From assembly GCA_964354495.1 (NCBI GenBank), contig CAYHAA010000004.1:90001-122000 (forward strand): 32,000 nucleotides of DNA. The letters run 5' to 3'. Source of the DNA: an uncultured archaeon (GTDB lineage Archaea > Asgardarchaeota > Thorarchaeia > Thorarchaeales > Thorarchaeaceae). The translations under genes were made by a program, and so were the position numbers. The notes beneath the pieces are model-generated. The model was not told the DNA's origin, did not search any database, and saw only the letters and a program-made list of their open reading frames with translations. Shown here in pieces: positions 11,413-17,200 of the stretch; the first letter of the stretch is position 1; each line of letters opens with the position of its first letter.

Positions 11413-12594
11413 ATGGCAGAAGTTCTAACGAAACCATCAAGGCGAATAAGGAACATGGTAGCTAAGGAGCTACGCCTCATAGTGAAAGATAAGGTTGCCA
11501 TCCTCCTGATCTTCATGCTGCCAGCAGCTCTGATTGGAATGCTGTGGTATGTGACTGAATCTAGTTCCATGGGTGGTATGGACATTGGCGGCAGTAGTGG
11601 TGGTGGTTCATCTGGTGGTGATAACGAAACTGTCATAGAGAGTGACATCATATTGGGTATCATCGATCTAGACACAACGCGAACGTATGAGGGCGAAGAC
11701 CTCTCTGAAAACCTGACAGCATACATCAAGAATTTCGTCAAAGAGCTGATTATCTATAATAGTACAGCTGATGCTTACAGAGACCTCTATGAGAAGGCCA
11801 TTGATGGGTACATAGTGATACCTGATGGCTTTGAGGCCAACTTGACGGTCAACGAGCCAACATATATTGAATTGCACGTAGATTCAACTGATTTTCTGGG
11901 CTCTGCTACAATACAGGGCGTTGTCCAAGGAGCTACCATAATGTTCAGGGTCTCTAAACTCTGGATACGTTCCGAGATCTTTCCTGGGGTAGTCATCGAG
12001 TTCGCGCCGCAGGGAGGGTACTTGGAGGCTGTCTTTGGTGGATTCATAGTCATTTTCTCAAGCTACTTGGGAATCGCGATGACGGCTGCGCAGAGTATTG
12101 TCGGAGACACACCACTTCGAAGAATGCTCCTGACGCCTACGAGTAGGCTAGAGGTCGTATTCTCCAAAGTGATTGCCTATGTCATCATCGGATTTCTGCA
12201 ATCCCTCCTTCTTGTTACGCTCTGGGTGCTGGCATTCAACCTTAATCTAAACACGAATTTCTTCTCGCTTGTCATCATCATGAGCTTCAGCGCCCTGACG
12301 GGATCGGCCACGGGAATTCTGATCTCAGCTGTTGCCGGTACAAGGCTTCAGGCAAATCAGATGTTCTTGTTTGTCCTATTTGCCACACTGATATTGTCTG
12401 GATTCTTCATTGATGTCGGCGTGCTAGATAACATTCTTCCAATGAATCAAGGACTCAAGCTTCTGATTGACACAGCATTCAAGGGTTTGTCATTGCTTCA
12501 GGTACTAGATAAGATATTCATACTTCTCGCATTCTCAGTGGGTGCAATGCTCCTTGCAACCTTCATATTCGCCAGAAAACCAACTTTGGGATAG
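11413..12594 (+). CDS. ABC-2 type exporter permease with extracellular domain (GldF/YbhS-like)
   Basis: N-terminal KELRLIVKDK..ILLIFMLP TM; extracellular loop with YIVIPDGF and N-x-S/T sequons; five C-terminal TMs with RRMLLTP.SRLEVVFSK and ILSGFF...ILP motifs. Confidence 0.9.
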   Translation: MAEVLTKPSRRIRNMVAKELRLIVKDKVAILLIFMLPAALIGMLWYVTESSSMGGMDIGGSSGGGSSGGDNETVIESDIILGIIDLDTTRTYEGEDLSENLTAYIKNFVKELIIYNSTADAYRDLYEKAIDGYIVIPDGFEANLTVNEPTYIELHVDSTDFLGSATIQGVVQGATIMFRVSKLWIRSEIFPGVVIEFAPQGGYLEAVFGGFIVIFSSYLGIAMTAAQSIVGDTPLRRMLLTPTSRLEVVFSKVIAYVIIGFLQSLLLVTLWVLAFNLNLNTNFFSLVIIMSFSALTGSATGILISAVAGTRLQANQMFLFVLFATLILSGFFIDVGVLDNILPMNQGLKLLIDTAFKGLSLLQVLDKIFILLAFSVGAMLLATFIFARKPTLG

Positions 12595-12603
12595 GATAGA
12601 AAC

Positions 12604-14283
12604 ATGATACCAGACGCAGAACATGTCGGGACGCACGAGGAGGAGAAACCAGCCTTTGTTGAGGAGGCGTATTTCTCCGGCGCAAGGATAAGCGAGGCAA
12701 TCGACTGGTGCATCACTCGCCAAGACCGAGAACTGCATTGCGAAGTGGAGGGCGTCCTCACCGATACAGGCAAAGAGATTCGATTCAAGGGGCGGATTCT
12801 GAAAGTCAAGAAGAGCGTACTCTCTAGGAGAATCGCTGTCCACGTGGATGAGGACCTCCGCAGAAGGAGAGCCGGAGAATTGGACAAGATACTCACAGTT
12901 GGGGGTGAGGGTTCAAGTCAGGAGGATGTGGGTGCCACTCAGATTACCGTGCAGAACTATCTGAAGAGAAATATGTCTGATGACCTCTATTATGATGGAA
13001 AGGACCTTCAGCAGGCAGTCAAGGAGCTCGAGAAGGTCAAGGGCCAGGATGTGGTGTGCACTGTCTGGGGAAGACGAGCATCAGATAGGCTTCCAATAAT
13101 GATAGAGGGTGTAGTTGTGGGAGCTACCACCGCACCCGCACCCATCTTGCCAGAGGGGTCTCTAGAGGTCCGTGTCGAGCCTGAAGGTGATGTAGGAGAG
13201 CCGAAGATCTACTATATCGCACAGCCACAACTACTCGTAGGACCCAAGTACAATCCAACTCTGACAGTCCTTGCCGATAAGGTCTATATCATGCCCTTTG
13301 CATGGAAGCAGGCTCCTGAATACCGAGATGTCGTATCCATCCGCAACCTGACAGTCGTTGTGAAGAGCGGCCAGAAACTCATAGAGAATGTGTCATTTTC
13401 GATTAAGGAGGGCGAGATGCTTGCAATCATCGGAGAGTCGGGAGCGGGCAAGTCAACCACTGTCAAAGCACTGATTGGGGACATACCAAGCACCGGAGTG
13501 TCTCGGATTGCAGGGATTGACTCGCGACAGACTCAGAAGGTCAGACACTTCTTCGGGTATTGCCCACAGGATTTGTCCTACATGTATGAGACCTTCACTC
13601 CGCTGGAGAACATTATCGCATTTGGAAAGCAATACAACATCCCTGAATGGCAACTCATCCAGAGAGGAAAGACCCTTCTTCGTGACTTTGGAATTCTCGA
13701 GAAGGGCAATAGTCCAACGTCCGAGCTCTCGGGAGGACAGCAGAGAAGAGAGTCCATTGCCATTGCGCTTGCGCACAATCCCAAGGTCCTATTAATGGAT
13801 GAGCCAACCTCGGGGTTGGACCCAGACAATAGGAGTGAACTCTGGAACTATCTCACCTTCATCAACCAGGAGTATGGCACATCGATCATAGTCATTACGC
13901 ACTACCCCGTTGAAGCAGAGTTCTGCGATAAGGTGGCGGTATTCATGAGAGGGAAGAGCCTTGTTGCATATGGAACTCCAACAAAGTTGAAGGAGTCCAT
14001 GCCATCAAGAGGTTTCGCAGTGGGAATTGTCTTGGAGGAGGTGGACCCGCGGGCTCTGAAGACTCTGGAGAGTGTTGAGGGGGCAAGATTCGTCCTTCAG
14101 AGAGGCGAACTGCTAAAAGTCTTCACTGATGATCCGCTTGAGATTGTCGCAGAGAGATGTGTGACCGCACTCAAGGAACGGGACATCGCAGTAAAGATAG
14201 TCAAGACAAAGTCTACAGCTGATATGGTCGACTATTACATAGCAATTACTAGAGGGCTTGTTCAAGGCACGATTGAGAAGTGA
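12604..14283 (+). CDS. ABC ATPase with ~240-aa N-terminal extension
   Basis: Walker A GESGAGKS, Q-loop CPQ, signature LSGGQ, Walker B LLMDEP, H-loop ITH. The NBD starts at ~13330; the extension contains two similar beta-rich units. Confidence 0.9.
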   Translation: MIPDAEHVGTHEEEKPAFVEEAYFSGARISEAIDWCITRQDRELHCEVEGVLTDTGKEIRFKGRILKVKKSVLSRRIAVHVDEDLRRRRAGELDKILTVGGEGSSQEDVGATQITVQNYLKRNMSDDLYYDGKDLQQAVKELEKVKGQDVVCTVWGRRASDRLPIMIEGVVVGATTAPAPILPEGSLEVRVEPEGDVGEPKIYYIAQPQLLVGPKYNPTLTVLADKVYIMPFAWKQAPEYRDVVSIRNLTVVVKSGQKLIENVSFSIKEGEMLAIIGESGAGKSTTVKALIGDIPSTGVSRIAGIDSRQTQKVRHFFGYCPQDLSYMYETFTPLENIIAFGKQYNIPEWQLIQRGKTLLRDFGILEKGNSPTSELSGGQQRRESIAIALAHNPKVLLMDEPTSGLDPDNRSELWNYLTFINQEYGTSIIVITHYPVEAEFCDKVAVFMRGKSLVAYGTPTKLKESMPSRGFAVGIVLEEVDPRALKTLESVEGARFVLQRGELLKVFTDDPLEIVAERCVTALKERDIAVKIVKTKSTADMVDYYIAITRGLVQGTIEK

Positions 14284-14287
14284 TGAA

Positions 14288-17200
14288 ATGTCAAAGACCA
14301 CGAGAGCAATGCCACAGCTGTGCCTAAGGCTGTTCACATGCATTATGATCGCCTCGATCATGCTCAGTGGTATGACTAGTATTCCTATTGTCACAGGAAC
14401 AGCAAGGGACCAGATACTGCCGCAGGACAAGATTGACACGACACTACTCAATCGGACACAGGTTGAGGAACGACTTGAGGTTCTTGTCGGCTACGATGAT
14501 GTGGCTTCGTATAAGGCACAGAATGCGATACTGATTGCTGATGAGACCGCGGAGTTGTTGGATACTTTCGAGTTTCTCAATATGATACGGGTGAAGATGC
14601 TCAGCACGTCTTTGGCTGACCTCGCCAGAGAAGCCTTCATCACGAAGATATGGTCAAATCAGGTCACCGCAATAAGGCAGACAGAAACCAATACCATCGC
14701 AGAACTCGAGGACTATGTACCTCTAATCGACCGAATAGGTGCGAGAAACCTCGTCGAGGCGGGATACAATGGAACAGGTGTGGTCATTGCTGTCCTCGAT
14801 ACCGGAGTGGACCCGCTTCATCCAGACCTGACAGTCTCAGCATTCGCATCCTTTGTCGAGGCAGATACACTTCCTCTTGACCTCATTGGGCATGGCACCT
14901 ATGCAGCCTCAGTCGCTATGGGAAATGGCAATATGTCCGACGGAAGGTATGCAGGCATAGCTCCTGGAGCAACATTGCTCTCTGCCAAGGTCACTTTGGG
15001 AGGTCTCTTTGCAGCTCCAAGTTGGATAGTCTCGGGTATTGAATGGGCAAGCAGCCGAGGGGCAGACATCATCCTCCTACCATTCAATACCTTTGGTGCT
15101 CCGGGCGACGCGGTTTCAGTGGCCATTCAAGAGGCCACAGAGAAAGGCATCTTTGTCATCGCAGCTGCTGGTGACGATGGCCCGGACTATCTCACAGTCA
15201 TGTCGCCGGGAGGGGGTGCAGCAGCGTTCTGTGTGGGCGCCTATGATACAGAGAAAGAGGAGATTCCCGATTTCTCAGGAAGAGGCCCTTCCCTTGACCT
15301 GCTCACCAAACCAGACATCGTGGCGCCTGGTGTCGGAATCGTTGGTGCTAAGGCCGGGGTGGGTCTTGGTAGCCTGGGATTTGGTGACATTGATCTTACT
15401 GACTTGGGAGATCTCGGTGGTCTTGGAGGTCTTTTGGGAAGTTCCCTTGGCGAAACTGTGGAAGAGAACTTCACTATTGCAGATACGACGACAGCTTCGG
15501 CAGCCATCACCGCCGGAGCTGCAGCGATATTGCTTCAAGCCTTTGATAGAGCAACTCCAATCACCCTCGGAAATGTCCTCCGGGATACGGCCAACCCAAT
15601 AGGGTACGGGGCAAATGATGGCGGAGCTGGCCTTCTGAACATTCAAGGCGCTTTCGATTATCTGAGTATGCGACAGACCCCTGTAAGTCCCCATAATCGT
15701 GCGACGGGTACACCACTTCTTGCTCTGGGTCTTGTATCTGCATCCGGCAGAAATGCATCGACAACGATGTTGATGAGCAGTTTTGGTACCACGGTCGTTG
15801 CCCTTGACTCACGCAATCCTCAGGACTCGGGCATCCATCTCATGCTGGGTATGTTCTCGCTCAAGTGGAACGACATGGATCCGGTGAACCTGATGATGTT
15901 CGATGTCAAGCGCGAACTGCATCAGGTCGTGATGGCAAGCACACTGACGAACTATGACCGCCATATTGGTATCCTGTCATATGAGGATGAAGTCTTCGTC
16001 ACTCTGGTCGTCGAGTCATACAACCTCACTACCTACTCAGCACTACCTCTGACCGCATTCAGAATCACGCCGTACATTCTCAATCTTGGGCCAGAACCGA
16101 TTGAGAACGTGAGCCTCTACGTCTCATATTCGCTAGATCTCTTCTTGGATGGGAGAGATGACCACGGCAAGTATGACCTTGATAATGAACAGCTATTCGC
16201 CTATGGTCTGTCTGAGGACTATGGCAATTTCTATCTTGGGCTCAACTCAAGCATTCCCTTATCAGCATTCGAGGTGGGCAACTCCTCAGAGATATCGAAT
16301 CATATCTCAGACAATGCTCTGACAGGGACTACTGCCTTTGACGGGAGCGTAGCGCTTGCATTGCAGTGGGACTTTGGAACGGTTGAGGTAAACAACCCCG
16401 TGAATGTCACAATCGCACTAGGCTTCGGAGAGAATAGAACAGTCCTTGATGCATCAATAGACGCAATGTGGCTGAACGAGGTTCCCAGCTTCATCGCCAA
16501 TCAAGGAGACCTCATTGTTGTAGAGGCCAATCTACCACGGATAGTTGCGATAGGACAGACCTACGTGTCACAAGCACTCATCATGAATGTTGGAGTCTAC
16601 AATTCATCAGCAATTGCCGCAATGGTCGTTGCAGAAAATCTTGGCGACAGCGGAGCGTTGTTTGCTGAATACTTCTCATACGACATTATTAGACCATTCC
16701 AAGCGATGAGTATGACCGCCACATATCATCCAGAAGGAGCTGGCATCAGAACTGCGGTTTGGGCGGTGGCAGCGAGCCTCGAGTCCGTGATTGGACTGAC
16801 TCAGAATATTAACACCTTAGTTCTTGGTATCCTAGATGACTTTCTGCTTAGAGACATCTTCATTATCTCGCCTATCTCATCTACTTCCGTCTTTCCGAAG
16901 ATAATTCCATTCGCACCATTCGATATCCGATTCCCTGCAGACTTCGGGCTCTATAGCTTTGTTCTAACTACGACCGAGTCCCTGGGAAATATGACCATCA
17001 CAAATCATGGTAATGCATCAGACTGGGGCAATATGTCCCTCACGCATGCAGACACGATTGAGGGATTCTATGACTTCTCGCTGTTTCTGTTGTCCCCACC
17101 TATAGGCATGGATGGGTATCATAGATGTGACTATGTTATTGAAACAGACTATGGATGGACCATGAATATCACCCTAGAGAGAGTGATCAAGTATCCTCGG

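What the first reader, a model, noticed from the sequence alone, without database searches (positions are those of the whole stretch)
14798..15499. Subtilase catalytic machinery is altered: nucleophile Ser to Thr, oxyanion Asn to Asp
Seen: catalytic Asp (VLDTG, codon 14798) and His (HGT, 14891) are intact. The oxyanion motif is AAGDDG (GAC 15173; canonical AAGN). The nucleophile motif is ADTTTASAAITAG instead of SGTSMATPHVAG, placing Thr (ACA 15491) at the Ser position, with Gly and Pro also lost. Several codons differ while the 4.3-kb ORF stays intact, so this is not a single error. Inference: a retained pseudo-protease acting as a binding, chaperone or scaffold module, or an unusual Thr-nucleophile enzyme. 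Asp at the oxyanion site is known in PC2 and sedolisins.
Basis: partly seen in the sequence, partly recalled or inferred. Interest (0 to 1): 0.7.

Follow-up and report, generated by a model that had tools for sequence, protein, structure and literature searches.

The report
Dead subtilase domain, Asgard surface protein
A large surface protein of a Thorarchaeota (Asgard) archaeon has a complete subtilisin-type protease fold, but its cutting serine and other catalytic residues were lost long ago, so it most likely binds or scaffolds beside an ABC transporter and databases wrongly call it a serine peptidase.

Summary
Asp (14798) and His (14891) are kept, the oxyanion Asn is Asp (15173), and the nucleophile Ser is Thr (15491). 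The substrate-strand motif S-L-G is also replaced, by P-F-N (15080-15088).

The Thr is not a conserved nucleophile. Among the window protein and 120 database proteins (53-100% identical), this position is T in 62, A in 51 and S in 8. It changed at least 20 times on their tree. His is S or P in 7 and Asp is A in 1, while the oxyanion Asp never varies.

The S8 domain is still the best-conserved part of the protein (dN/dS about 0.03). The gene was found in 72 of 76 genomes sampled from the window's own family. All 33 altered-site cluster representatives, from Thor-, Loki-, Hel-, Hod- and Ranarchaeia lineages, form one clade among canonical subtilases.

The protein also has a prodomain, a GIFT domain, a membrane helix and a conserved cytosolic tail. 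It usually sits next to ABC-2 permease and ATPase genes.

Verdict: an ancient, selected pseudo-protease. The Thr-nucleophile reading is rejected. The scan had already reached the same reading on other Asgard genomes. I found no paper on this family.

The parts
14288..18643 (+). Gene for the 1451-aa surface protein (ATG 14288; an ORF listing from TTG 14258 gives 1461 aa)
   Evidence: Orthologues are 1434-1491 aa and start at the ATG. The upstream gene's stop codon ends at 14283.
14318..14377 (+). N-terminal hydrophobic segment (signal peptide or signal anchor)
   Evidence: Hydropathy scan. It is one of only two hydrophobic segments in the protein.
14420..14662 (+). I9-like prodomain (P0001 aa ~55-135), the fastest-evolving part
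   Evidence: AF2 model: beta-alpha-beta fold with pLDDT 84-91. Foldseek top hits are unprocessed pro-subtilases, 3afg and 3whi. It shows 23.8 changes per site on the tree.
14771..15649 (+). Subtilase (S8) domain, P0001 aa 172-464, catalytically degenerate
   Evidence: Pfam PF00082 at 9e-38, 130.6 bits. Z 35.4 to Tk-SP and Z 33 to subtilisins. 8.35 changes per site and 24% invariant sites, the lowest rate in the protein. dN/dS 0.025.
14798..14800 (+). Asp181, the catalytic Asp position, retained
   Evidence: It is D in 116 of 117 aligned sequences and A in one. In the wider clade it is D in 30 of 33.
14891..14893 (+). His212, the catalytic His position, retained here
   Evidence: It is H in 112 of 119 sequences, S in 4 and P in 3. 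In the wider clade it is H14/R12/S4/E2/I1.
15080..15088 (+). P-F-N in place of the substrate-binding strand S125-L-G127 of subtilisin
   Evidence: Alignment to Tk-SP. Invariant in 59 aligned orthologues. Canonical relatives have S in 100% and G in 93% of sequences.
15173..15175 (+). Asp306 at the oxyanion-hole Asn position
   Evidence: D in 121 of 121 sequences. D in 29 of 33 clade representatives, against N in 110 of 110 canonical relatives.
15371..15466 (+). Gly/Leu/Asp-rich insertion of about 32 aa (aa 372-403), just before the nucleophile helix
   Evidence: Absent from Tk-SP in the alignment. pLDDT is below 50 over aa 372-395. It is partly conserved in orthologues.
15491..15493 (+). Thr412 at the nucleophile Ser position
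   Evidence: T62/A51/S8 in 121 sequences. At least 20 changes on the tree. The wider clade has G12/A11/T5/S3 plus one D and one F, against S in 110 of 110 canonical relatives.
15815..17137 (+). Family-specific middle region (aa 520-960)
   Evidence: No Pfam family above its cutoff. Used as a family-specific probe: found in 72 of 76 genomes of the window's own family.
17195..17992 (+). GIFT-type (GATase1-like) domain (aa ~980-1245), carrying a second Gly/Leu/Asp-rich loop
   Evidence: All 59 orthologues hit IFT52_GIFT, 56 hit ABC_transp_aux and 51 hit DUF4350. The model matches IFT52 at Z 22.4, S1P residues 616-874 at Z 18 (21-22% identity) and OST48/Wbp1 at Z 18.
17990..18292 (+). Macroglobulin-like beta sandwich (aa ~1245-1345)
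   Evidence: Model residues 284-388 match MG domains of alpha2-macroglobulin, C3 and C5 at Z about 12, rmsd about 2 A.
18350..18406 (+). C-terminal transmembrane helix
   Evidence: Hydropathy scan and a predicted helix. Present in all clade members inspected.
18407..18640 (+). Basic stop-transfer stretch and a ~78-aa helical cytosolic tail
   Evidence: Mean column identity 77% in the family. The same tail pattern appears in distant clade members.
11413..12594 (+). ABC-2 permease gene, a conserved neighbour
   Evidence: Pfam ABC2_membrane_3. Same position next to orthologues and to three of four distant relatives.
12604..14283 (+). Long ABC ATPase (TrmB-like N-terminal region plus NBD), a conserved neighbour
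   Evidence: Pfam. Orthologues are 72-92% identical. Adjacent to the pseudo-subtilase gene.
18645..19646 (+). Second ABC ATPase, immediately downstream
   Evidence: Pfam ABC_tran. Present downstream in the P0102, P0122 and P0005 loci. Absent next to P0128 and P0134.

Best explanation
**Shown**
- The S8 domain is a non-catalytic subtilase homologue, a pseudo-protease.
- It has lost the nucleophile Ser, the oxyanion Asn, the S-L-G substrate strand and the M-A-x-P-H helix start.
- These positions drift or are re-fixed across the family.
- The fold is intact, and the domain is under the strongest purifying selection in the protein.
- The alteration is shared by one clade of 1300-1700-aa Asgard proteins. 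All of those inspected (Pfam on 10, C-termini of 13) have S8, a C-terminal membrane helix and a helical tail, and all but one give a GIFT-type Pfam hit.
- Their genes usually lie beside genes for an ABC-2 permease and a long ABC ATPase.

**Inferred**
- The protein cannot cut off its own I9-like prodomain, so the prodomain probably stays attached, as in CspC.
- The remodelled, acid-lined cleft is used for binding rather than cutting. It comprises Asp181, His212, Asp306, Asp307, Asp310 and Asp409 together with P-F-N and the flexible Gly/Leu/Asp loop. The bound partner could be a peptide, a glycoprotein or a cation.
- The whole protein would act as the extracellular auxiliary subunit of the neighbouring ABC-2 system, in the way GldG accompanies GldA and GldF. 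Its conserved cytosolic tail would link it to the cytoplasmic parts.
- The cargo or ligand is unknown.
For: **1. Residue identities and positions**
-.

**2. The nucleophile position is T62/A51/S8 among 121 sequences**
- It needs at least 20 changes on the tree, and only 32 of 293 S8-domain sites change more often.
- His is S or P in 7 sequences and Asp is A in 1, in proteins that are otherwise intact.

**3. The domain is selected, not decaying**
- 8.35 changes per site, against 13-24 elsewhere in the protein, and 24% invariant sites.
- dN/dS is 0.025 against an 86%-identical orthologue, although dS is saturated.
- A match to the family-specific middle region was found in 72 of 76 genomes of the window's own family, mostly as a single match.

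**4. Comparison of 33 altered with 110 canonical representatives**
- D, H, N, S, Ser125 and Gly219 are at 99-100% in the canonical set; Gly127, Met222 and Pro225 are at 93-95% there.
- In the altered clade these positions are relaxed or re-fixed (Asn to Asp in 88%, Met to Ala, Pro to Ala).
- Fold-defining Gly and Pro residues are kept.

**5. One clade**
- FastTree SH-like support is 99.
- IQ-TREE with LG+C20 and the trait columns removed gives SH-aLRT 97.

**6. Taxa named by the sources**
- Thor-, Loki-, Hel-, Hodarchaeales and Ranarchaeia.

**7. Gene neighbourhood**
- The order ABC-2 permease, long ATPase, this gene is seen in the window, in the loci of P0005, P0102, P0122 and P0128, and divergently next to P0134.
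- It was not seen next to P0129.

**8. The GIFT domain is confirmed by sequence and by fold**
-.

**9. Extracellular placement**
- All 23 N-x-S/T sequons lie between the two hydrophobic segments, against 11.7 +/- 3.0 in shuffles.

**10. Precedent for working pseudo-subtilases with uncleaved prodomains**
- CspC and CspA of C. difficile (PMC7200643).
Against: - Within the Thorarchaeota family, Asp181 (116 of 117) and His212 (112 of 119) are still strongly kept. Asp306, Asp307, Asp310 and Asp409 are invariant. This could point to some residual or new chemistry rather than plain binding.
- No biochemical data exist for any member.
- I could not measure active-site distances, because the tools do not expose model coordinates.
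- Retention of the prodomain, the nature of the ligand and physical contact with the ABC proteins are all inferences.
- One of four distant relatives (P0129) is not next to ABC genes.
- dS is saturated, so the dN/dS values are approximate.
Confidence: 0.75

Rival explanations
1. Thr-nucleophile subtilase. Thr412 would replace Ser as the nucleophile and Asp306 would serve as a PC2-like oxyanion residue. The protein would then be an active protease, or at least a protease that cuts itself once.
For: - Asp181 and His212 are intact in the window protein.
- Thr or Ser occupies the position in 70 of 121 sequences.
- PC2 is active with Asp at the oxyanion position (PMC4182778).
Against: - Ala occupies the position in 51 of 121 close sequences. 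Gly or Ala does so in 23 of 33 clade representatives. The position changed at least 20 times on the tree.
- The S-L-G substrate strand, Gly219, Met222 and Pro225 are also replaced.
- Asn to Asp at this site greatly lowers Kex2 activity (PMC4182778).
Confidence: 0.04
2. Neo-enzyme. The conserved acidic cluster (Asp181, Asp306, Asp307, Asp310, Asp409) together with His212 would carry out a different reaction, such as water-mediated hydrolysis or metal-dependent chemistry, without a Ser nucleophile.
For: - Asp306, Asp307, Asp310 and Asp409 are invariant, and Asp181 and His212 are nearly invariant, in the Thorarchaeota family.
- Asp at position 306 is the signature of the clade, present in 29 of 33 representatives.
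Against: - A Thorarchaeota sub-clade has His as Ser or Pro, and one member also has Asp181 as Ala, yet these proteins are otherwise conserved.
- In the wider clade His is R, S, E or I in 19 of 33 representatives. Positions 307 and 409 are not conserved there.
- No set of candidate catalytic residues is shared by the whole clade.
Confidence: 0.07
3. Ligand sensor. The dead active-site cleft would bind a small molecule, cation or peptide and pass the signal across the membrane to the ABC ATPases, as CspC senses germinants. This refines the best explanation rather than replacing it.
For: - The cleft is remodelled but conserved.
- The single membrane helix and the cytosolic tail are conserved.
- CspC and CspA provide a precedent.
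Against: - No ligand is known, and no evidence of signalling exists.
- The large multi-domain ectodomain and the enrichment in glycosylation sequons fit a structural surface component just as well.
Confidence: 0.2
4. Decaying gene or assembly error. The substitutions would reflect a pseudogene or sequencing mistakes.
For: Only one observation points this way. One orthologue in the genome survey carries a single in-frame TAG (G197).
Against: - The frame is intact over 1451 codons.
- The same substitutions appear in 120 database proteins of this family from many independent assemblies.
- dN/dS is about 0.03-0.04.
- The gene was found in 72 of 76 genomes of the window's own family.
Confidence: 0.01

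Closest known systems
CspC and CspA pseudoproteases of Clostridioides difficile (S8 family)
   Same: - Subtilase fold with substituted catalytic residues.
- The prodomain is retained because autoprocessing is impossible.
- The protein is kept by selection for a non-proteolytic role (PMC7200643).
   Different: - The Csp proteins are soluble spore proteins of Firmicutes, about 550 aa long, that act in germinant sensing.
- They are not membrane-anchored, have no GIFT domain and have no link to an ABC transporter.
- Their substitutions differ: His to Thr and Ser to Gly in CspC, His to Gln and Ser to Ala in CspA.
- They represent an independent loss in an unrelated lineage.
Tk-SP of Thermococcus kodakarensis and bacterial subtilisins (active S8A enzymes)
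   Same: - These are the best sequence and fold matches of the domain. Tk-SP scores 2e-42 with 36-37% identity and Z 35.4. Subtilisins score Z 33.
- An I9-like prodomain is present.
   Different: - These enzymes have D, H, N and S, the S-L-G strand and the G-T-S-M-A-x-P-H motif.
- The window protein lacks the last four of these and carries a 32-aa Gly/Leu/Asp-rich insertion before the nucleophile helix.
Eukaryotic site-1 protease (MBTPS1/S1P/SKI-1)
   Same: - Same order of parts: prodomain, S8 domain, GIFT-type GATase-like domain, C-terminal membrane helix, basic tail.
- The GIFT domain matches S1P residues 616-874 at Z 17.6-18.0 with 21-22% identity, the highest identity in that list.
- The S8 domain matches S1P at Z 32.7.
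   Different: - S1P is an active, self-processing protease with a canonical triad and Asn.
- The S8 domain here is no closer to S1P (24% identity) than to Tk-SP or subtilisins (31-37%).
- Only 1 of 59 orthologues gives a weak hit to the Pfam family MBTPS1_4th.
- This protein has a much larger middle region, an MG-like sandwich and ABC transporter neighbours.
GldG with GldA/GldF (Bacteroidota gliding-associated ABC-2 system; Pfam ABC_transp_aux)
   Same: - A GIFT-type extracytoplasmic domain in a membrane-anchored protein, encoded beside an ABC-2 permease and its ATPase.
- That GldA, GldF and GldG form such a system is from my own knowledge and from the Pfam description.
   Different: - GldG has no subtilase domain.
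- The ABC_transp_aux score of the window protein is below Pfam's cutoff (18.5 against 34.7 bits).
- The Asgard ATPase carries extra TrmB-like N-terminal domains.
OST48/Wbp1 subunit of eukaryotic oligosaccharyltransferase
   Same: The C-terminal module (GIFT domain, beta domain, single C-terminal membrane helix) aligns over 283-326 residues at Z about 18. It is also the top Foldseek hit at 8e-12.
   Different: - Identity is 10-15%, and the relative orientation of the domains differs (rmsd 13-14 A).
- OST48 has no protease-like domain.
- The IFT52 GIFT domain alone scores higher (Z 22.4).
Prohormone convertase PC2 (Asp at the oxyanion position)
   Same: Asp replaces the oxyanion Asn (PMC4182778).
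   Different: PC2 keeps the Ser nucleophile and is an active protease. Here the Ser is gone.

Membership tests
Peptidase S8 (subtilase) homologous superfamily | Significant match to the S8 profile over the whole domain | tested here: met
   PF00082 at 130.6 bits against a cutoff of 21.8, covering profile positions 1-286 of 288.
Peptidase S8 (subtilase) homologous superfamily | Subtilisin alpha/beta fold | tested here: met
   The AF2 model matches Tk-SP at Z 35.4 (rmsd 2.9 A, 280 residues) and subtilisins at Z 33.
Active S8 serine peptidase | Nucleophile Ser in G-T-S-M-A | tested here: not met
   Thr412 in the window. T62/A51/S8 across the 121 sequences. S in 110 of 110 canonical relatives.
Active S8 serine peptidase | Oxyanion-hole Asn | tested here: not met
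   Asp306, invariant in 121 sequences. N in 110 of 110 canonical relatives.
Active S8 serine peptidase | Catalytic Asp and His | tested here: met
   Asp181 and His212 are present in the window protein. They are lost in some orthologues.
Active S8 serine peptidase | Substrate-backbone strand S125-L-G127 | tested here: not met
   P-F-N, invariant in the family.
Pseudo-protease of the subtilase family (as CspC/CspA) | Catalytic substitutions shared by orthologues, with the fold under purifying selection | tested here: met
Pseudo-protease of the subtilase family (as CspC/CspA) | Prodomain stays uncleaved, and no peptidase activity | not testable with these tools
   This needs protein biochemistry. 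A prodomain-like fold is present.
GldG-like / ABC_transp_aux auxiliary component of ABC-2 systems | GIFT-type domain | tested here: met
   IFT52_GIFT in 59 of 59 orthologues (28.8 bits against a cutoff of 27.2 for the window domain alone). Z 22.4 to IFT52. ABC_transp_aux itself scores below its cutoff.
GldG-like / ABC_transp_aux auxiliary component of ABC-2 systems | Encoded beside an ABC-2 permease and ATPase | tested here: met
   Seen in the window and next to five of six relatives examined.
GldG-like / ABC_transp_aux auxiliary component of ABC-2 systems | Physical and functional association with the transporter | not testable with these tools
   This needs co-purification or genetics.
Site-1 protease (MBTPS1) | Order of parts: S8, GIFT-type domain, membrane helix, basic tail | tested here: met
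Site-1 protease (MBTPS1) | Active triad with Asn, and self-processing | tested here: not met
   Ser and Asn are replaced.
Site-1 protease (MBTPS1) | Specific sequence kinship (S1P-specific Pfam domains; S8 domain closest to S1P) | tested here: inconclusive
   MBTPS1_4th hits 1 of 59 orthologues at E 0.003. The S8 domain is 24% identical to S1P, against 36-37% to Tk-SP. The GIFT domain is 21-22% identical to S1P. No tree including S1P was built.

The most novel reading that the evidence does not exclude
The combination of S8, GIFT domain and membrane helix would be an Asgard invention related by descent to eukaryotic site-1 protease, and its C-terminal module to OST48/Wbp1. The dead-protease version would be the substrate-holding arm of an ABC-driven machine that handles surface glycoproteins in Asgard archaea. 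That would be a previously undescribed kind of archaeal envelope machinery with eukaryote-like parts.
Probability: 0.15. Interest if true: 0.8.

Novelty: new variant of a known kind. Interest (0 to 1): 0.5.

Why it matters
- **Annotation.** Public records call these proteins 'S8 family serine peptidase'. Counts of extracellular peptidases used to infer protein degradation by Thorarchaeota and other Asgard archaea would therefore include a protein that almost certainly does not cut.
- **Biology.** This is a nearly universal gene of the window's family, mostly found as a single match, and it is shared with several other Asgard lineages. It pairs a selected dead-enzyme domain with a GIFT domain of the kind found in IFT52, OST48 and S1P, and with an ABC-2 transporter. 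It is therefore a concrete handle on unknown Asgard cell-surface machinery.
- **Evolution.** It also bears on the origin of the eukaryotic S1P-like arrangement of domains.
- **The pseudo-enzyme phenomenon itself is well known** (CspC, CspA), so the surprise lies in the context and the age of the loss, not in the principle.

Tried and rejected
1. **Complex prediction, cytosolic tail (aa 1384-1461) with the long ABC ATPase, both as alignments.** No verdict: score 0.00 against a mark of 0.32. This counts neither for nor against binding.
2. **Expression.** No RNA holder is listed among the sequencing runs that hold the gene.
3. **Literature.** Searches for Asgard/subtilisin/GldG, 'GIFT domain' with archaea, and Thorarchaeota with subtilisin found no paper on this family. 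The library is incomplete.
4. **Sequence search of aa 520-1400 against PDB chains.** Only a weak IFT52 match, E 0.05. The fold search was needed to settle the domain.
5. **Alternative nucleophiles next to position 412.**
   - Ser414 is not conserved: A in 15 of 121 sequences and in 24 of 33 clade representatives.
   - Position 410 is G, S or T.
   - Thr411 equals the ordinary Thr220 of subtilisins (98% T in canonical relatives).
6. **S1P as the nearest relative of the S8 domain.** S1P appears only at rank 38 of the VIA list (ranks there are tied within Z 1), with lower identity than Tk-SP or subtilisins. S1P is absent from the 60 best PDB sequence hits shown.
7. **Active-site distances in the AF2 model.** These could not be measured because coordinates are not exposed.
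8. **ESM Atlas shape search of the S8 model.** It returned only generic S8 clusters.
9. **First C-terminal alignment (A2).** It started after the first GIFT strand and was replaced by A3.
Full report
**Numbering.** Residue numbers follow P0001, the ORF translated from TTG 14258. The orthologues begin at the ATG at 14288 (P0002 is 1451 aa and 100% identical). The real protein is therefore probably 1451 aa, and 10 should be subtracted from my numbers. The nucleotide coordinate of codon n is 14258 + 3(n-1).

- The + strand ORF 14258/14288-18643 is intact.
- Its residues 172-464 match Pfam Peptidase_S8 at 9e-38 over the full profile.
- Reading the DNA:
  - VLDTG has Asp181 at 14798-14800.
  - GHGT has His212 at 14891-14893.
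  - AAGDDG has Asp306 at 15173-15175.
  - ADTTTAS has Thr412 at 15491-15493 and Ser414 at 15497-15499.
- The HMMER alignment to the closest solved relative, Tk-SP of Thermococcus kodakarensis (E 2e-42), puts Asp306 on the oxyanion Asn and Thr412 on the nucleophile position. Around Thr412, Gly becomes Thr, Met becomes Ala and Pro becomes Ala.
- The same alignment shows that the S-L-G strand, which holds the substrate backbone in subtilisins, reads P-F-N here (15080-15088).
- It also shows that about 32 Gly/Leu/Asp-rich residues (aa 372-403) are inserted just before the nucleophile helix.
- An AF2 model of aa 45-530 (mean pLDDT 75; 89-96 for the 'Ser' helix) has an I9-like prodomain followed by a complete subtilisin fold.
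  - The four residues sit at their canonical places in the fold.
  - The model matches Tk-SP at Z 35.4 and subtilisins at Z 33 with rmsd 2.2-2.9 A.

**It is not chance or error**
- The genome holds 12 S8-matching loci.
- Ten loci other than this gene were checked with a pattern scan. Seven show all four of D-[TS]-G, H-G-T, [AS]-[AS]-G-N and G-T-S-x-[AS], and one more (L003) lacks only the last.
- In a set of 110 canonical relatives, the four catalytic columns are D, H, N and S in every sequence.

**Orthologues decide between pseudo-protease and Thr enzyme**
- A search of 5.8 billion proteins returned 120 listed proteins, 53-100% identical and mostly full length (some are partial, 906-1366 aa). 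Where the sources give a name, it is almost always Thorarchaeota.
- None of them has G-T-S-M-A.
- Counting the window protein as well (121 sequences), position 412 is T in 62, A in 51 and S in 8.
- On a tree built without the trait columns, this position needs at least 20 changes. Only 32 of the 293 S8-domain sites change more often.
- His212 is S or P in seven proteins, and one of these also has Asp181 as Ala. These proteins are otherwise well conserved.
- Asp306, Asp307, Asp310, Asp409 and Thr411 are invariant.
- A residue that flips freely between Thr, Ala and Ser cannot be an essential nucleophile.

**The domain is nevertheless under strong selection**
- It has the fewest changes per site in the protein: 8.35, against 23.8 for the prodomain, 13.1 for the middle region and 15.5 for the C-terminal region. 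24% of its sites are invariant.
- Against the gene of an 86%-identical orthologue (L018), dN/dS is 0.025 for the S8 domain and 0.044 for the whole gene. dS is saturated at about 1.7-1.9, so these values are approximate.
- Using the family-specific middle region as a probe, I found a match in 72 of 76 genomes of the window's own family, mostly as a single match.
  - Other families of the phylum also have it: 5 of 5, 17 of 19 and 6 of 6.
  - It was not found with this query in two well-sampled families: 0 of 28 and 0 of 21.

**The loss is old and happened once, as far as the data show**
- An exhaustive HMMER search with aa 45-530 against 1.84 billion cluster representatives listed the 150 best hits.
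- After the window's own cluster come proteins of 1300-1700 aa with A-G-D at the oxyanion site, G/A/T/S/D/F at the nucleophile position and A-A-A-x-V-A-G in place of M-A-T-P-H-V-A-G. Many also have His as R, S, E or I.
- The combined states seen are DHDA, DRDG, DSDT, SEDG, DHDS, DRNG and others.
- All 33 such representatives form one group:
  - FastTree SH-like support is 99.
  - IQ-TREE with LG+C20, after removing columns 181, 212, 215, 275-277, 306 and 410-417, gives SH-aLRT 97.
- Source names place the members in Thor-, Loki-, Hel-, Hodarchaeales and Ranarchaeia. One partial sequence is labelled Bathyarchaeota.
- Comparing the 33 with the 110 canonical sequences column by column:
  - The clade has re-fixed Asn to Asp (88%), Met to Ala (82%), Pro to Ala (94%) and His67 to an aromatic residue.
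  - It has relaxed Ser125, Gly127, Gly219 and the triad.
  - It has kept the structural glycines and prolines.

**Context**
- The rest of the protein is a large ectodomain.
- All 23 of its N-x-S/T sequons lie between the two hydrophobic segments. Shuffled sequences give 11.7 +/- 3.0.
- Residues about 980-1245 form a GIFT-type domain.
  - All 59 orthologues tested hit IFT52_GIFT, 56 hit ABC_transp_aux and 51 hit DUF4350.
  - The AF2 model (pLDDT 72) matches IFT52 at Z 22.4, S1P residues 616-874 at Z 17.6-18.0 with 21-22% identity, and OST48/Wbp1 at Z about 18 over 283-326 residues that run into the membrane helix.
- A macroglobulin-like sandwich follows (Z about 12), then a membrane helix and a 78-aa helical tail. 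The tail is conserved in the family (77% mean column identity) and is recognisable in distant clade members.
- The flanking genes are an ABC-2 permease, a long ABC ATPase with TrmB-like N-terminal domains, a second ATPase and a 2277-aa TSP3-repeat protein.
- The order permease, long ATPase, this gene recurs next to P0005 (86% identical), P0102 (57%), P0122 and P0128. It is divergent next to P0134 and absent next to P0129.
- The long ATPase is even better conserved than this protein, at 72-92% identity.

**Mechanism**
- Shown:
  - The canonical catalytic apparatus is gone.
  - The fold is kept and selected.
  - The protein is predicted to be membrane-anchored with an outside ectodomain.
  - It is genetically tied to an ABC-2 system.
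- Inferred:
  - Without a nucleophile the prodomain cannot be cut off and probably stays bound, as in CspC. In CspC, even restoring the triad does not restore processing (PMC7200643).
  - The conserved, acid-lined and remodelled cleft then serves as a binding site, and the protein works as the outer auxiliary subunit of the transporter, comparable to GldG with GldA and GldF.
- The ligand or cargo is unknown.
- The strong retention of Asp181, His212 and the Asp cluster inside the Thorarchaeota family leaves some room for cation binding or a new chemistry. No candidate catalytic set is shared by the whole clade, however.

**Comparison with known systems**
- By function, the closest parallel is the Csp pseudoproteases.
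- By sequence and fold of the S8 domain, the closest are Tk-SP and subtilisins.
- By order of domains, the closest is eukaryotic S1P. S1P is active, and its S8 domain is no closer to this one than bacterial subtilisins are (24% against 31-37% identity).
- PC2 shows that Asp at the oxyanion position is compatible with activity (PMC4182778), but only when the Ser is present.

**Earlier notes of this scan**
- After I had formed this reading, look-ups showed that the scan had flagged the same family in at least ten other windows of other Asgard genomes.
- Four follow-up reports reached the same conclusion: a dead subtilase partnered with an Asgard ABC-2 transporter. These are not independent evidence.
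- I found no published description.

**What did not work**
- The complex prediction of the cytosolic tail with the long ATPase gave no verdict.
- No RNA run is listed as holding the gene.
- Model coordinates are not exposed, so active-site distances could not be measured.

Noticed in passing
window 15371-15466 and about 17234-17440: Two Gly/Leu/Asp-rich low-complexity loops share an L-G-D-L-G-(G/S)-L core. One is inserted in the S8 domain just before the nucleophile helix. The other is in the GIFT domain after its first strand. Both have pLDDT below 50 (block means 20-48) yet are partly conserved in orthologues. Their role is unknown.
   Followed up: partly
window 17195-18406: The C-terminal module (GIFT domain, beta sandwich, single membrane helix) has the OST48/Wbp1 subunit of eukaryotic oligosaccharyltransferase as its top Foldseek hit (8e-12, about 400 columns). 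Its GIFT part is 21-22% identical to the GIFT-type domain of human S1P.
   Followed up: partly
window 14288-18340 (ectodomain): N-x-S/T sequons are enriched: 23 against 11.7 +/- 3.0 in shuffles, and all lie between the two hydrophobic segments. This fits an N-glycosylated surface protein.
   Followed up: yes
window 12604-14283: The long ABC ATPase with TrmB-like N-terminal domains is more conserved (72-92% identity across the listed orthologues) than the pseudo-subtilase it accompanies (53-93%).
   Followed up: partly
L011 (G000:C3:85572-89474), also L012: Another S8-matching ORF of the same genome (1110 aa, weak Pfam match 2.5e-17) shows none of the D, N or S motifs in a simple pattern scan. 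L012 also lacks the D and N patterns. One or both may be further degenerate subtilases.
   Followed up: no
G197:C106:8868-10310 (same-genus genome): The orthologue in this genome has a single in-frame TAG inside the middle region. This could be a sequencing error, a recent break or read-through. I did not examine it.
   Followed up: no
P0239 and P0250 (the two rows nearest the altered clade in the tree): The two rows nearest the altered clade in the tree keep D, H, N and S but have already lost M-A-T-P-H (they read G-S-S-A-A-T-A-F and G-T-S-P-A-T-A-I). P0250 (1555 aa) gives a weak IFT52_GIFT hit. These may be intermediate forms.
   Followed up: partly
public records of P0006, P0024, P0031, P0123, P0134, P0158 and others: Source annotations name these proteins 'S8 family serine peptidase' or 'subtilisin family serine protease', although the nucleophile is missing.
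   Followed up: yes
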